Source: Candidatus Latescibacterota bacterium (GTDB lineage Bacteria > Latescibacterota > UBA2968 > UBA8231). Taken from it: DNA of 64,000 nucleotides. The DNA is taken from positions 1,952,001 through 2,016,000 of the forward strand of contig OZ242005.1 of NCBI GenBank assembly GCA_965204725.1, written 5' to 3'. A model generated the notes under the pieces. The model was not told where the DNA came from. It searched no databases and worked only from the letters and a program-made list of their open reading frames with translations. The position numbers were made by a program, and so were the translations under genes. Shown one piece after another: positions 54,830 through 64,000 of the stretch (position 1 is its first letter; each line of letters opens with the position of its first letter).

Positions 54830-54876
54830 CTCGAAAGCATGAAATGTTCATCGGCACCGTCTTTTTGCCTATAAGG

Positions 54877-54931
54877 CGTCCTTCCCGCGCACGAACGTCA
54901 CCCCGTGCCCCGACACGGGGCGGGAATCCAG
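54877..54931. repeat. GTCATTCCCGC-type REP with a nested hairpin insert
   Basis: CGTCCTTCCCGCGCA[CGAACGTCACCCCGTGCCCCGACACGGG]GCGGGAATCCAG. Confidence 0.65.
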
Positions 54932-54965
54932 TCTTGAAAGATGTAGGATTACTATATATGAATGA

Positions 54966-60964: not shown

Positions 60965-61044
60965 CTGGATTGCCGCGTGCGCGGGAATGACGGAAGGCTT
61001 AGGACGACGCAAGAACTCGTCATTCCCGTGCAAGCGGCAATCCA
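60965..61044. repeat. REP doublet (GTCATTCCCG...AATCC family)
   Basis: TGGATTGCCGCGTGCGCGGGAATGACG...CGTCATTCCCGTGCAAGCGGCAATCCA inverted pair. Confidence 0.75.
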
Positions 61045-61132: not shown

Positions 61133-62056
61133 CTACTCGGCTCGGTCTAACAGGCGTCCAAAGGCGTCAAGGCTGGGCACCTGTATGGCCGCCCGATGCA
61201 ACTGCTTGAGGCGCGGCACATCGGCGGTGGCCTCAATGCGAGCGACCAACGGATCCGACGCGGCCAACCCAAAGCGAACCTCTAGCACCTCAAGCAGACC
61301 TTCAGTGGCGAGTTCTCGGCCCCCTCGCTCAATGCCCTGCTCAATGCCTTGCTCGATGCCCTGCTTAATCCCCTGCTTAATCCCCTTTTCCGTGAAATAC
61401 TGCGCTACCGACGACTCGTACATGGTCTCCTCCTCGATGATGGTCATAATCGTCTCTAAGTTATACACCAACCCGCTCAACATCGCAAGATCGGCCAGAT
61501 AGTTCGCCTTGACGCCCTCGTCCATCGGCACCTGTTGCGCTCTATTCACACACTGGCGCAACCACCCCTCGGCATCGACGCCTGCGGGCGGCTGCATCAA
61601 CGGCGCAAACGGCAGCAGGCCCGAAGGTCCCGCGGTGAGGATGCGTTGACCGTCGATCTCAATCAGCCGAATGACCTTGTATTGCACCAAGACGCGGTAG
61701 CCGCGTCGTTCTTGGACGTAGTAGCCCGGGTCATTTCGGCCAGCGTCTGGGCGCAAATAGATGACGTTGGAATAGATCGGCCGGTTGTGCTGTTCAATGC
61801 CGCGTCCGATATAGCCGATCATGCGGCGCGGCATGGGCGGTTTGCTGTCGGTGGTTTGAAACTCGTGGTGGACCAGCACCTCCTCGCCGCCGACGTGGAC
61901 GCGAATGAGGCTATCGGTGCGGTGGGTTTCGGCGGTGGGCTGCTCGGTATCGACGACGCCGAGGATTTGGATGTCGTCTTGTTGGAGGGCGAAGCGGGCG
62001 AAGTCGGCGGGGTAGGTGTGGATGAGATGCTTGGCGATGGAATCGAATTCGGCCAT
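61133..62056 (-). CDS. Rpn family nuclease, copy 3
   Basis: Near-identical to copies 1 and 2, 16 aa shorter than copy 1. Confidence 0.85.
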   Translation of the reverse strand: MAEFDSIAKHLIHTYPADFARFALQQDDIQILGVVDTEQPTAETHRTDSLIRVHVGGEEVLVHHEFQTTDSKPPMPRRMIGYIGRGIEQHNRPIYSNVIYLRPDAGRNDPGYYVQERRGYRVLVQYKVIRLIEIDGQRILTAGPSGLLPFAPLMQPPAGVDAEGWLRQCVNRAQQVPMDEGVKANYLADLAMLSGLVYNLETIMTIIEEETMYESSVAQYFTEKGIKQGIKQGIEQGIEQGIERGGRELATEGLLEVLEVRFGLAASDPLVARIEATADVPRLKQLHRAAIQVPSLDAFGRLLDRAE

Positions 62057-62182
62057 GAGCCTTGCCTTGGTTGCGGGTGAGAAGGGGTGGTATGTGCAAT
62101 AGGCAAGAATCGTGCCATGGCGGCGGCTCAGAGGGGAGACGGGGGATCGGCGGCGTGGGTGTGTAGCGAAAAGGGGACAGGC

Positions 62183-62311
62183 GTGGGGCAACATAAAAAC
62201 AAGGCCCCGGAGGGATTTACCAAAAAATACAGCATTCATACATTGGTTTATGTTGAACAACATCACAAGAAATGGCACCGTCAATGGAAACGGGAACTCA
62301 TAGCGCGGCAG
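62183..62311 (+). pseudogene. GIY-YIG (YhbQ/UPF0213-like) nuclease remnant
   Basis: VGQHKNKAPEGFTKKYSIHTLVYVEQH-HKKWHRQWKRELIARQ; lacks the N-terminal GIY/YIG motifs and the A..REK helix. Confidence 0.7.
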
Positions 62312-62346
62312 ATTTTGCATATAAGGCGTCATTTGTATGTTGCGTA

Positions 62347-62525
62347 TTCCTTTCAGCTAGGCCACTCTGAAAGGGCCGCGTGCGGGGCGCGTCGTCCGTC
62401 ATTGGGTGCGCCGGCACGTCCGTGCCGGCGGCACCGTGCGGGAGTAAGACACCCCTCACGCTGAGTTGTCGCTCCGAACCGATACAAGGGCACAAGGCCC
62501 GTATTACAAGTGGGGAGGACAGCAC
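62347..62525 (+). ncRNA. IS110 bridge RNA (predicted)
   Basis: 5' hairpin 62349-62374; target loop with TCCGTCATT (62395-403) and GCGGGAG (62438-444); donor loop with ACCGATAC (62478-485) and TACAAGT (62505-511); each pair surrounds a hairpin. Confidence 0.8.
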
Positions 62526-62556
62526 CAGTATCCATTATAACCAGGAGGCTATTCGC

Positions 62557-63510
62557 ATGAAAGTTATGGCCGGTATAGACGTAGGAAAGAGGAGCTTGGA
62601 CGTGTCGGTAGCGGCTGGTCCGGCGCGTCGATTTGACAACACGCCTGCGGGGCGTACGGCCTTGGTGGAGTGGTTGGAACGTCAGGGGGCGACCGAGGTG
62701 GTGTGCGAACCGACCGGGGGCTATGAGCGGCCTCTGGTGCGTCGGGTGCAGGCCACGGGATGGCCGATCCACCTAGTGCATCCCAACCGTGTGCGCCACT
62801 TTGCCCGGGCGGCGGGCAACCACGCCAAGACCGACGCGCTGGACGCACAGATGCTGGCGCGGTATGGGATGGCCTTCGAGTTGCCGCGTCCGCTGGCCAA
62901 AGAAGCCGACCGAGAGGTGGTACAGGACCTGCTGCGTCGGCGCAAGCAGTTAGTCAACCAGCGCGTACAGGAGCGTCATCGGCTGGACCAAGGGCAAACC
63001 GAAGGGGCGCGCATCTCTATCGAGCGGCACCTCCAATGGCTCGACGAAGAGATTAGCCAGCTCGACGAAGCCTACCAGCAGGCGTTGGCACACAGCGTCT
63101 CATTGGCCGAGGCCGCCGCCCTCTACCGCAGTGTACCGGGCGTGGGTGCGTTGACTGCGGCGACGCTAGTGGGGTATCTGCCGGAGTTAGGGCACTACAG
63201 CGGCAAGGAGGTGACCTCGTTGGTCGGGCTGGCTCCGTGGGCCAACGACAGCGGCCGACAGCAGGGGTATCGCTCGATCCGGGGCGGACGAGGCACCGTG
63301 CGGAAGGTGTTGTACTTGGCGGCCTTGGCCGCCATCCGCTGCAATGACGACCTCAAGCGGTTCTATCAACGACTGTGTACCCGGGGCAAGACCGGCAAGG
63401 TGGCCTTGGTCGCGGTAATGCGGAAGCTCCTGCTGGTGCTCAACGCTATTGCCCAGCGAGGCTCCCCGTGGGTCCAACACCCCACCCCAGCAGGCCACAA
63501 AAAGGCTTGA
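62557..63510 (+). CDS. IS110 family DEDD recombinase/transposase
   Basis: SD CAGGAGG; GIDVGK, CEPTG, KTDALDA (DEDD), SVPGVG, NDSG (catalytic Ser), VAVMRKLL. Confidence 0.95.
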   Translation: MKVMAGIDVGKRSLDVSVAAGPARRFDNTPAGRTALVEWLERQGATEVVCEPTGGYERPLVRRVQATGWPIHLVHPNRVRHFARAAGNHAKTDALDAQMLARYGMAFELPRPLAKEADREVVQDLLRRRKQLVNQRVQERHRLDQGQTEGARISIERHLQWLDEEISQLDEAYQQALAHSVSLAEAAALYRSVPGVGALTAATLVGYLPELGHYSGKEVTSLVGLAPWANDSGRQQGYRSIRGGRGTVRKVLYLAALAAIRCNDDLKRFYQRLCTRGKTGKVALVAVMRKLLLVLNAIAQRGSPWVQHPTPAGHKKA

Positions 63511-63527
63511 CCCGCAACACAGATACT

Positions 63528-63637
63528 CCCGCGCAAGCGGGAATCCAGTGTTCTTTCAGGGGAGGACGCTTTTATGGATTCCCGCGTTCGCGGGAATGAC
63601 GAAAAATAACGGACATGACGAAAAATAACGGACGAAA
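63528..63637. repeat. REP doublet (first copy split by IS110) followed by a 19-bp tandem duplication
   Basis: CCCGCGCAAGCGGGAATCCA...TGGATTCCCGCGTTCGCGGGAATGAC; ATGACGAAAAATAACGGAC x2. Confidence 0.75.
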
Positions 63638-63669
63638 AAATGCGAATCGACGCGGCTGTTGACAGATGA

Positions 63670-64000
63670 ATGCTAATGCCTGAGTTGATGCGCTCCGTCA
63701 TCGAATGGCTCGCCCGGTTCTGGCGCGACCGCTTCCCCCTGCTCATCGTCCTTATCGCCGGGCTGGGCACCGCCCACATCCTCGTCCGCACCGCCACTTA
63801 CGGCGCGGCCGTCAGCCACGAATCCACAATCCACCTTTCTACGGCCCTGAACTTCCTCGCGGGCGAGGGCTGGCGGTATTTCACGGGCAGCCCGATGATA
63901 GGATGGCCGCCCTTGTTCCCCCTGCTGCTCGCGGTCGGCGGTTGGGTCGGCATCGAGCCGCTAGAGGCGGGTCGGTGGGTCAACGCCATGGCCTTTGGGC
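63670..64000 (+). CDS. array gene 10 (5' part, runs off window): GT-C fold membrane glycosyltransferase-like
   Basis: MLMPELMRSVIEWLARFWRDRFPLLIVLIAGLGTAHILVRTATYGAAVSHESTIHLSTALNFLAGEGWRYFTGSPMIGWPP. Confidence 0.8.
   Translation, partial: MLMPELMRSVIEWLARFWRDRFPLLIVLIAGLGTAHILVRTATYGAAVSHESTIHLSTALNFLAGEGWRYFTGSPMIGWPPLFPLLLAVGGWVGIEPLEAGRWVNAMAFG

What the first reader, a model, noticed from the sequence alone, without database searches (positions are those of the whole stretch)
62325..63548. Complete IS110 bridge-recombinase with a fully decodable bridge RNA programmed against a REP family
Removing 62334-63527 restores GGCGTCA-TT-CCCGCGCAAGCGGGAATCCAG, and a paralogous uninterrupted flank exists at 54863-54891. 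The circle junction ACAGATA-CT-TGTAT resembles the IS621 donor and creates TTGACC-N17-TATGTT, pointing into the left non-coding end. That end folds into a 5' hairpin and two guide loops. The target loop has TCCGTCATT (left target plus core) and GCGGGAG (reverse complement of CTCCCGC), either side of a 14-bp stem. The donor loop has ACCGATAC (7/8 to ACAGATAC) and TACAAGT (reverse complement of ACTTGTA), either side of GGGC-ACAAG-GCCC. The cores differ at the first base (TT left, CT right), a natural core-mismatch insertion. The mechanism class is known; this compact 317-aa ortholog and its target appear to be a new instance.
Basis: partly seen in the sequence, partly recalled or inferred. Interest (0 to 1): 0.75.

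Follow-up and report, generated by a model that had tools for sequence, protein, structure and literature searches.

The report
REP-targeting IS110 element with bridge RNA
This is an intact IS110-type jumping gene whose own small guide RNA is written to match a roughly 95-copy palindromic repeat of its host genome; it is a clear but ordinary new example of the known bridge-RNA recombinase system.

Summary
Window 62334-63527 is a 1194-bp IS110-group insertion sequence. It has a 223-nt left end, a 317-aa DEDD/Tnp recombinase gene and a 17-nt right end. It sits in a REP-like hairpin, CGTCA-TT-CCCGC(G nnn CGCGGGAAT). Five other copies or remnants in the same genome have the same ends and the same target. 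The empty 12-mer occurs 95 times, against about 1 expected. The left end folds into a 5' hairpin plus two internal-loop modules, and this fold is supported by covariation in 25 related left ends. The loop segments match the target and the element's own ends in the IS621 manner, handshake dinucleotides included. Across 25 related lineages the right-target guide changes together with the right flank: 12 specificities, and 0 of 20000 permutations did as well. The TT (left) versus CT (right) core is not a one-off mismatch. It is the rule in this clade, because the REP core is TT, the left-target guide reads TT and the right-target guide reads CT. No RNA or circle-junction data exist, and this is the only intact copy in the genome. 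Verdict: a new member of a known kind, of modest interest.

The parts
62325..62333 (+). Left target: LT GGCGTCA plus the target-derived core TT
   Evidence: Read. The same ..CGTCATT flank is present at all other copies. It matches the left-target guide at 7 of 9 positions.
62334..63527 (+). Whole IS110-group insertion sequence (1194 bp)
   Evidence: The ends are shared by copies elsewhere in the genome. The same end motifs, TGTATG... and ...GATACT, appear in the 80 related loci.
62334..62556 (+). Left end (223 nt), which encodes the bridge RNA
   Evidence: A long left end with a short right end is the IS110-group layout (Durrant 2024, passage). Alignment A2 of 25 left ends was made.
62336..62341 (+). 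-10-like hexamer TATGTT of the split promoter
   Evidence: Of 80 elements, 67 have TATGTT, 12 TATGAT and 1 TATGAA at left-end positions 3-8. No sigma-70-like site was found in the linear form.
62347..62376 (+). 5' stem-loop of the bridge RNA
   Evidence: Helix 1 has 11 pairs, 9 of them with changes on both sides.
62378..62461 (+). Target-binding module: lower stem 62378-62387 with 62452-61, internal loop, and an upper stem within 62404-62435 (the consensus keeps 7 of its pairs)
   Evidence: Helices 2-4; 8 of their pairs have compensatory changes. The single-sequence fold agrees.
62395..62403 (+). Left-target guide (LTG) TCCGTCATT
   Evidence: It is identical to the first 9 nt of the 14-mer TCCGTCATTCCCGC, which occurs at 37 sites. 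It covaries with the left flank across lineages (GTCATT versus CAACT types).
62438..62446 (+). Right-target guide (RTG) GCGGGAG plus handshake dinucleotide TA
   Evidence: Its reverse complement, CTCCCGC, equals the right junction. The RTG tracks 12 different right flanks in relatives. TA is complementary to left-donor positions 6-7, which read TA.
62467..62521 (+). Donor-binding module: lower stem 62467-75 with 62514-21, hairpin 62488-62500
   Evidence: Helices 5-6. They are mostly invariant, with 2 pairs changed on both sides.
62478..62485 (+). Left-donor guide (LDG) ACCGATAC
   Evidence: It matches ACAGATAC (left donor plus first core base) at 7 of 8 positions. The mismatch is present in all four left-end copies of this genome. 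Most relatives have the perfect ACAGATAC.
62505..62512 (+). Right-donor guide (RDG) TACAAG plus handshake dinucleotide TG
   Evidence: Its reverse complement, CTTGTA, equals the core CT plus the first 4 nt of the left end. TG is complementary to left-target positions 6-7, which read CA.
62557..63510 (+). Recombinase gene (317 aa). A Shine-Dalgarno AGGAGG lies at 62543-62548
   Evidence: Pfam PF01548 and PF02371. D8, E51, D93, D96 and S232-G233 are invariant in the 27-sequence alignment. It aligns to ISCro4 and IS621.
63507..63512 (+). -35-like hexamer TTGACC, overlapping the stop codon
   Evidence: TTGA(C) lies at this offset from the right-end terminus, give or take one base, in 78 of 80 elements.
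63511..63527 (+). Right end (17 nt): left donor ACAGATA (63519-63525) plus core CT (63526-63527)
63528..63548 (+). Right target CCCGC and the rest of the REP hairpin (CCCGCGCAAGCGGGAATCCAG)
54863..54932 (+). Uninterrupted paralogous REP (long-hairpin variant, GGCGTCCTTCCCGCG...GGGAATCCAG)
   Evidence: genome position C1:2006877.

Best explanation
Window 62334-63527 is a complete IS110-group insertion sequence that works as a bridge-RNA-guided recombinase system of the IS621 type. The inferred mechanism is as follows. After excision the right and left ends join, which brings a -35 box (in the right end) and a -10 box (in the left end) together and drives transcription of a roughly 175-nt RNA from the left end. 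[quoted passage not shown] In the second loop, the left- and right-donor guides pair with the element's own joined ends, ACAGATA-CT-TGTA. The 317-aa DEDD/Ser recombinase then exchanges strands next to the T of the core. The genome offers 95 empty target 12-mers. In this clade the target core is TT and the donor core is CT. The left junction always keeps the target's T and the right junction always keeps the donor's C. Shown here: the anatomy, copy ends, target census, RNA structure covariation and guide-flank covariation. Inferred only: transcription, circle formation and catalysis.
For: Protein family and catalytic residues. Identical ends and an identical REP target at all 6 copies or remnants in the genome. 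Empty target count: 95 (12-mer) and 37 (14-mer), against about 1.2 expected. Structure: 44 consensus pairs, 19 with compensatory changes; 95.0% of cells pair, against a shuffled mean of 86.9% (0 of 500 shuffles as high) and 39-53% when partners are slid. Guide logic: in 25 lineages (71 of 82 insertions parsed automatically; the other 11 were read by eye and agree, apart from one TC left core), the right-target guide matches its own right flank at a mean of 4.76 of 5 positions, against 2.74 for non-cognate pairs (0 of 20000 permutations as high). The left-target guide scores 5.56 against 4.83 of 7 (9 of 20000). There are 12 distinct right-target guide specificities. Split promoter geometry is conserved in 78 of 80 elements (-35) and 80 of 80 (-10-like), and no promoter-like site exists in the linear element. 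The layout matches published IS621 rules: a 9-nt left-target guide including the core, an 8-nt left-donor guide, handshake dinucleotides after the right-target and right-donor guides, and the ATA/TAT sub-terminal repeat (passages of PMC11208160 and PMC11208158 seen).
Against: This copy has no direct evidence of activity. The left-donor guide carries one mismatch to the left donor (C for A at position 3) in all four left-end copies. The lower stem of the target module has one C-U mismatch, seen in own1, own2 and L010. This insertion's own left flank matches the left-target guide at only 7 of 9 positions. The second full-length copy is frameshifted (longest ORF 229 aa) and a third is internally deleted, so this is the only intact recombinase gene of the family in the genome. 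The family may therefore be decaying here. Rfam 15 gave no match in the left end, so no curated model confirms the RNA.
Confidence: 0.9

Rival explanations
1. The element is a bona fide bridge-RNA insertion sequence by descent but is now an immobile relic in this genome. The guide matches would be inherited, not currently used.
For: There is only one intact ORF. Copy 2 is frameshifted, copy 3 is deleted, and three pieces are stubs. All local left-end copies carry a left-donor guide mismatch and a stem mismatch. There are 95 free targets but only 6 occupied.
Against: The ORF is full length with every catalytic residue conserved. The two full-length copies are 97% identical, so the last transposition need not be ancient. 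Left-donor position 3 is also mismatched in a multi-copy relative (L043 group, 5 copies), so the mismatch seems to be tolerated.
Confidence: 0.35
2. REP targeting is set mainly by protein or DNA-structure recognition of the hairpin. On this view the left end is only a leader and promoter, and its resemblance to the flanks is a by-product.
For: The target lies in the 5' arm of a palindrome. A preprint on ISPpu10 reports that a target stem-loop adds specificity beyond base pairing (abstract seen).
Against: The right-target guide changes in step with 12 different right flanks across lineages (0 of 20000 permutations as high). The guide segments sit in internal loops of a structure supported by covariation. 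A structural contribution can coexist with RNA guidance but cannot replace it.
Confidence: 0.05
3. The constant TT-left/CT-right core pattern arises because both strands are cut 3' of core position 1 in this clade (a 1-nt overlap), not because only the top strand is inherited.
For: Either model predicts that the first core base stays with its left arm. The data here are junction sequences only.
Against: In IS621 the bottom strand is cut several bases to the left of the core (tC9*/tC10*; passage). A preprint on CazIS110-1 reports more than 1300-fold preference for top-strand integration (passage). Both favour the top-strand reading, but neither was tested on this clade.
Confidence: 0.25

Closest known systems
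IS621 (Escherichia coli) bridge recombinase and bridge RNA
   Same: Same domain pair and catalytic residues. Bridge RNA in a long left end with a short right end. A 5' hairpin followed by target and donor modules. A 9-nt left-target guide and an 8-nt left-donor guide, with right-hand guides that include the core, followed by 2-nt handshake guides. The core-plus-right-donor sequence CT-TGTAT is the same as the one spelled out for IS621 in PMC11208158 (positions 8-14, passages). A split -35/-10 promoter across the junction. A REP-type target.
   Different: The protein relation is distant (phmmer E 3e-35; identity was not computed). The right-target guide is 7 nt here, against 4 nt in IS621. The right-donor guide looks contiguous, whereas it is discontiguous in IS621. 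The target core is TT while the donor core is CT. Left-donor positions 6-7 read TA, against AT in IS621.
ISCro4 bridge recombinase (PDB 9t56)
   Same: It is the best solved-structure relative (E 7e-37, aligned over residues 5-305). The KTDA-DA and SG catalytic motifs align.
   Different: It is 341 aa against 317 aa here. Its RNA was not compared.
ISPpu9 / ISPpu10 (Pseudomonas putida), REP-inserting IS110 elements
   Same: IS110-family elements that insert into repetitive extragenic palindromes or a conserved stem-loop target in many copies (abstracts seen). ISPpu9 also has extra copies of its small-RNA gene elsewhere in its genome.
   Different: A different host phylum and a different REP sequence. 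ISPpu9 carries its small-RNA gene downstream of the transposase gene; here the RNA is in the left end. No sequence comparison was made.
CazIS110-1 (Caloranaerobacter azorensis)
   Same: The reported top-strand-biased, copy-out-paste-in transposition (passages seen) predicts exactly the junction pattern seen here: the target's first core base on the left and the donor's on the right.
   Different: That is an experimental system. No sequence comparison was made here.

Membership tests
IS110 family (IS110 group) insertion sequence | N-terminal DEDD RuvC-like domain (PF01548) with D, E, D, D | tested here: met
   PF01548 E 2.2e-22, residues 5-144. D8, E51, D93 and D96 are invariant in 27 sequences. 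KTDALDA aligns to KTDAVDA of ISCro4.
IS110 family (IS110 group) insertion sequence | C-terminal Tnp domain (PF02371) with a catalytic Ser followed by Gly | tested here: met
   PF02371 E 5.3e-16, residues 189-271. S232-G233 is invariant. Equivalence to S241/G242 of IS621 is inferred from the alignment region and was not checked residue by residue.
IS110 family (IS110 group) insertion sequence | Long left end, short right end, very short sub-terminal inverted repeat (ATA...TAT), no long terminal inverted repeats | tested here: met
   Left end 223 nt, right end 17 nt. The junction reads ..GATA-CT-TGTAT... The criterion comes from PMC11208160 passages.
IS110 family (IS110 group) insertion sequence | CT core dinucleotide at both boundaries | tested here: inconclusive
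   The right boundary is CT. The left boundary is TT in all local copies and in 64 of 71 parsed relatives. The second base, T, is kept. The published text says the first core base is less conserved and that TT cores work in IS621.
Bridge RNA (IS621 type) | 5' stem-loop plus two stem-loops with internal loops, conserved across orthologues | tested here: met
   RNAalifold consensus on 25 left ends: 44 pairs, 19 with compensatory changes. The controls are clearly lower.
Bridge RNA (IS621 type) | First loop: the 5' side equals the top-strand sense of left target plus core; the 3' side is complementary to core plus right target | tested here: met
   The left-target guide matches 37 REP sites at 9 of 9 positions. 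The right-target guide matches the right junction at 7 of 7. Both covary with the flanks across 25 lineages.
Bridge RNA (IS621 type) | Second loop: guides matching the element's own joined ends | tested here: met
   Left-donor guide 7 of 8, right-donor guide 6 of 6. Relatives mostly score 8 of 8 for the left-donor guide. The donor ends hardly vary, so there is little covariation evidence.
Bridge RNA (IS621 type) | Match to a curated covariance model | tested here: not met
   No Rfam 15 family matched the left end up to E = 10. Whether Rfam holds a bridge-RNA family at all was not established. The published models were not available here.
Bridge RNA (IS621 type) | [quoted passage not shown] | not testable with these tools
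   Only the sequence geometry is shown (TTGACC-17-TATGTT, conserved). No RNA runs were listed.
REP (repetitive extragenic palindrome) as target | Short palindromic repeat in many intergenic copies | tested here: met
   The 12-mer occurs 95 times and GGGAATCCAG 157 times. There are short and long hairpin variants.
REP (repetitive extragenic palindrome) as target | Association with a RAYT (Y1 transposase) gene | tested here: not met
   The only PF01797 match lies inside a 1202-aa ORF and has one REP about 2.3 kb upstream, which is not the classical flanked RAYT arrangement. 'REP-like' is therefore the safer term.

The most novel reading that the evidence does not exclude
In this clade the target core (TT) and the donor core (CT) differ by rule. 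The bridge RNA encodes both: the left-target guide reads TT, and the right-target guide reads CT, pairing with the uncut target through a G-T wobble and with the product through G-C plus two handshake pairs. This makes the first core base a natural strand marker. All 64 automatically parsed TT-target insertions carry the top-strand pattern (target T on the left, donor C on the right), as do seven more related insertions read by eye and every junction kept by the six local copies. None carries the bottom-strand pattern that full double-strand exchange followed by replication should give about half the time. The clade would then be field evidence that IS110 insertion is inherited from the top strand only, with a built-in pairing gain that favours insertion over excision.
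Probability: 0.35. Interest if true: 0.5.

Novelty: new member of a known kind. Interest (0 to 1): 0.3.

Why it matters
It adds a cleanly annotated bridge-recombinase and bridge-RNA pair, with a defined 14-bp natural target, from uncultured bacteria. Its closest named relatives are Candidatus Latescibacterota MAGs. It comes with a set of about 25 related lineages whose right-target guides have drifted through 12 specificities on one conserved scaffold. That set could guide the choice of orthologues and the design of longer right-target guides. The constant TT/CT core asymmetry bears on the open question of whether IS110 insertion is completed by bottom-strand exchange or by replication. It proves nothing without experiments.

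Tried and rejected
Rfam 15 scan of 61800-64000 at E up to 10: only three chance-level hits and nothing in the left end.

RNA evidence: no RNA holder was listed among the 21 runs found, so expression could not be examined.

Contigs of four DNA runs were laid on 62100-63800.
- The joints that skip 1194-1196 bases have only 20 letters on one side. They are best explained by empty REP copies elsewhere in the genome, not by an empty allele of this site.
- The joints 62363->63525 and 62794->63125 reproduce the stub and the internally deleted paralogue already seen in the genome.
- No joint running from the right end back to the left end (circle or tandem) was listed, and the assembled genome holds no such junction. 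None of this bears on activity.

Earlier notes of this scan: nothing on this genome matched.

Solo left-end stubs as a possible site-specific by-product: a relative's genome (G001) also has short stubs, but the one examined ends at a GCGC microhomology rather than at the core. No general rule emerged.

A classical RAYT partner for the REP family was not found.

The 376-aa GTG-started ORF (62380-63510) was rejected as the gene. Homologues start at the MKV... ATG, and the extension would overlap the RNA.

Supplementary tables of Durrant 2024, which list predicted bridge RNAs and orthologues, could not be seen. This element or its close relatives may already be in them.

Full report
WHAT IS THERE

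- The element runs from TGTATG (62334) to ACAGATACT (63527).
- It is flanked by GGCGTCATT on the left and CCCGCGCAAGCGGGAATCCAG on the right.
- The gene is the ATG-started ORF 62557-63510 (317 aa) behind an AGGAGG box. A longer GTG-started frame is an artefact, because homologues begin at MKV.
- Pfam finds DEDD_Tnp_IS110 (2.2e-22) and Transposase_20 (5.3e-16).
- The best solved relatives are the bridge recombinases ISCro4 (7e-37) and IS621 (3e-35).
- D8, E51, D93, D96 and S232-G233 are invariant in an alignment of 27 relatives.
- The left end is 223 nt and the right end 17 nt, which is the IS110-group layout described by Durrant et al. 2024 (PMC11208160, passages seen).

BOUNDARIES AND TARGET

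The window's own genome (5.43 Mb, 2 contigs) holds seven BLAST matches, which make up six elements:
- this copy;
- a 97% copy at C1:149752-150946, which is frameshifted (longest ORF 229 aa);
- an internally deleted copy of 863 bp;
- a fragment holding only left-end positions 1-194;
- two stubs of 33-35 bp.

Every one abuts ..CGTCATT on the left (the left-end fragment has an extra A). Every one that keeps a right junction abuts CCCGC there. PF02371 finds no other IS110-family gene in the genome (3 matches, all from this family), so the window holds the only intact recombinase.

The empty site is abundant. CGTCATTCCCGC occurs 95 times, against about 1.2 expected from composition. The 14-mer TCCGTCATTCCCGC occurs 37 times, while the CT-core version CGTCACTCCCGC occurs only twice. 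The site is the 5' arm of a hairpin repeat, ATTCCCGCG-nnn-CGCGGGAAT followed by CCAG. This repeat has a short and a long variant and is embedded in a few larger repeated contexts. All insertions have the same orientation relative to the repeat, as expected because the CGTCA part lies outside the palindrome. No classical RAYT gene was found, so 'REP-like' is the careful term.

It has C instead of A at left-target position 7 and is the long variant.

THE RNA

The left end alone folds well (-95.8 kcal/mol, z = -2.7), but the stronger evidence is comparative. A protein search found 3696 relatives among 8000 scored candidates. A scan of reference genomes returned 80 loci (383 stretches encoded a relative). 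They come from Candidatus Latescibacterota (74-77% identity), Dehalococcoidia and other Chloroflexota, Nitrospirales and one Poribacteria MAG (58-65%).

Twenty-five non-identical left ends align over a conserved scaffold. The consensus structure has 44 pairs in six helices:
- a 5' hairpin (62347-62376);
- a first module with a lower stem, a 3-bp clamp and an upper stem (62378-62461);
- a second module (62467-62521).

Nineteen pairs show compensatory changes. Across the alignment 95.0% of cells pair, against 86.9% after shuffling (0 of 500 shuffles as high) and 39-53% when partners are slid by 1-3 columns. Helices 5 and 6 are nearly invariant, so they are consistent with the fold but not informative. 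Two of the pairs in helix 5 (columns 151-152 with 189-190) probably belong to guide segments rather than to a stem.

THE GUIDES

[quoted passage not shown] Two handshake bases follow each right-hand guide (PMC11208160 and PMC11208158, passages). Here:
- LTG (left-target guide), TCCGTCATT (62395-62403), equals the left target plus TT;
- RTG (right-target guide), GCGGGAG (62438-62444), is the complement of CT plus CCCGC;
- LDG (left-donor guide), ACCGATAC (62478-62485), matches ACAGATA plus C at 7 of 8 positions;
- RDG (right-donor guide), TACAAG (62505-62510), is the complement of CT plus TGTA.

The dinucleotide after the RTG (TA) is complementary to left-donor positions 6-7 (TA). The one after the RDG (TG) is complementary to left-target positions 6-7 (CA). 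That is the post-exchange handshake arrangement.

The decisive test is natural variation. I extracted the guide segments by their position in the conserved scaffold, independently of the flanks, for 82 insertions. Of these, 71 parsed automatically. The other 11 were read by eye and agree, apart from one left core that reads TC. In 25 lineages the RTG matches its own right flank at a mean of 4.76 of 5 positions, against 2.74 for non-cognate pairs (0 of 20000 permutations as high). The LTG matches at 5.56 against 4.83 of 7 (9 of 20000). Twelve RTG specificities occur: CCCGC, CCGAG, GCGAG, CCAGC, CCGGC, CCCGA, CCTGC, CCCGT, CTCGC, CTGAG, GTTCG and TCTGA. A thirteenth, TCGAG, was seen by eye. Donor ends barely vary, so the donor guides are supported by matching rather than by covariation.

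PROMOTER

No sigma-70-like site exists in the linear element (0 found in 62150-63700). Joining the right end to the left end gives TTGACC-17 nt-TATGTT. TTGA(C) sits at that offset, give or take one base, in 78 of 80 elements. A TATGTT, TATGAT or TATGAA hexamer sits at left-end positions 3-8 in 80 of 80. This places the likely start just before the 5' hairpin. Transcription itself is not shown.

THE CORE

The pattern is real, but it is the rule.
- All local copies have it.
- 64 of 71 parsed relatives have it.
- The remaining 7 have CT on both sides and an LTG ending in CT.
- The empty repeat itself has TT.
- Among the 25 lineages the LTG ends in TT (18), TA (5) or CT (2), while the RTG always carries AG.

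The first core base therefore stays with its left arm in every case. IS621 is reported to cut the top strand just after the core T and the bottom strand several bases to the left, leaving mismatches that are 'excised and repaired'. Its first core base is described as less conserved, with TT cores functional. A preprint on CazIS110-1 reports more than 1300-fold preference for top-strand integration. Another reports single-strand excision by IS621 (abstract). The junction pattern here is what top-strand inheritance predicts. Full exchange of both strands followed by replication should give the reciprocal pattern (CT left, TT right) about half the time, and it was seen in none. A 1-nt overlap would give the same result, so this remains an inference. 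A full-text search for 'TT core', 'core mismatch', 'mismatched core', 'non-CT core' or 'different core' together with 'bridge RNA' returned only the four bridge-RNA papers and preprints already consulted. None of the passages seen describes a clade with different donor and target cores. Durrant's target-motif analysis kept only guides with CT cores. Supplementary tables were closed.

WHAT IS NOT SHOWN

No RNA run was listed. Contigs of four DNA runs gave no circle junction, and their apparent 'skips' are explained by paralogous REP copies and by the deleted and stub copies in the genome. Rfam has no matching family. This lineage's LDG mismatch and one C-U mismatch in the target-module stem, together with the decay of the other copies, leave open whether this copy is still mobile.

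VERDICT

This is a well-behaved new member of the IS110-group bridge-recombinase systems, inserted in a REP-like repeat as several known IS110 elements are (IS621; ISPpu9 and ISPpu10). Neither its size nor its target class is unusual. The clade-wide split core is a small, testable addition.

Noticed in passing
G000:C1:3366070-3366104 (-) and G000:C1:1854876-1854909 (+): Two solo stubs hold the first 33-35 nt of the left end. Each joins ..GGCCACT(CT) directly to the REP right arm CCCGC, exactly at the normal right junction. Both right breakpoints coincide with the element end, and the left breakpoints lie 2 nt apart at two adjacent CT dinucleotides in the loop of the 5' hairpin. This looks like aberrant recombinase-mediated excision at an internal pseudo-core, or a deletion through ACT/CT microhomology. 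Contig joints 62363->63525 in runs X1 and X3 reproduce it.
   Followed up: partly
G000:C1:5015047-5015241: A left-end-only fragment (positions 1-194, 91% identical) keeps the whole bridge-RNA region but has no recombinase gene. It has an extra A at the left junction and a 1-nt insertion in the right-donor guide. It recalls the orphan small-RNA gene copies reported for ISPpu9 (abstract), but it looks degenerate.
   Followed up: partly
window 63577-63607 (- strand) and window about 60981-60992 (- strand): Two further empty copies of the REP target, CGTCATTCCCGC, lie on the minus strand. One is 50 bp downstream of the element and the other about 1.3 kb upstream (genome positions C1:2015601 and C1:2012992). 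The insertion therefore sits in a small REP cluster.
   Followed up: no
whole genome G000 (examples): The REP hairpin is embedded in at least three longer repeated contexts. One follows a terminator-like ...GGCCCGGTCTTTTTTGCCTAT.AGG and precedes TCTTGAAGGATGTAGGATTGCTATAT. A second lies between TTGAACAAGCCGTAGAGACAGGAT and CCGGGATCGTTTAGACGCAAAGGACGACC. These suggest larger MITE-like or intergenic repeat units.
   Followed up: no
related loci L008-L087: Similar GTCATTCC...GGAATC-type hairpin repeats serve as targets in MAGs of four phyla: Latescibacterota, Chloroflexota, Nitrospirota and Poribacteria. They differ mainly in the stem bases that the right-target guide reads. Several DNA runs that hold the window's element are labelled sponge metagenomes. 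This may reflect exchange of elements and repeats within one habitat.
   Followed up: no
L080 (downstream flank) and L094 (G001:C1:1611700-1613000): In relatives, one element is followed after about 20 bp by a second copy inserted in the next repeat unit (tandem REP occupancy). Another copy is split by an insertion of about 860 bp in the upper stem of its target module.
   Followed up: no
window 61133-62332 (- strand): The 399-aa ORF that ends at the element's left flank has no Pfam match at E 0.001 or better. It carries a GIKQGIKQGIEQGIEQGIERG repeat near its C-terminus. Its annotated start, next to the REP, is probably too far upstream.
   Followed up: no
G000:C1:1908969-1912577: The genome's only Y1_Tnp (PF01797) match (E 5.6e-12) lies inside a 1202-aa ORF rather than in a stand-alone RAYT gene. 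One long-variant REP lies about 2.3 kb upstream of the match, some 0.5 kb before the ORF start.
   Followed up: partly
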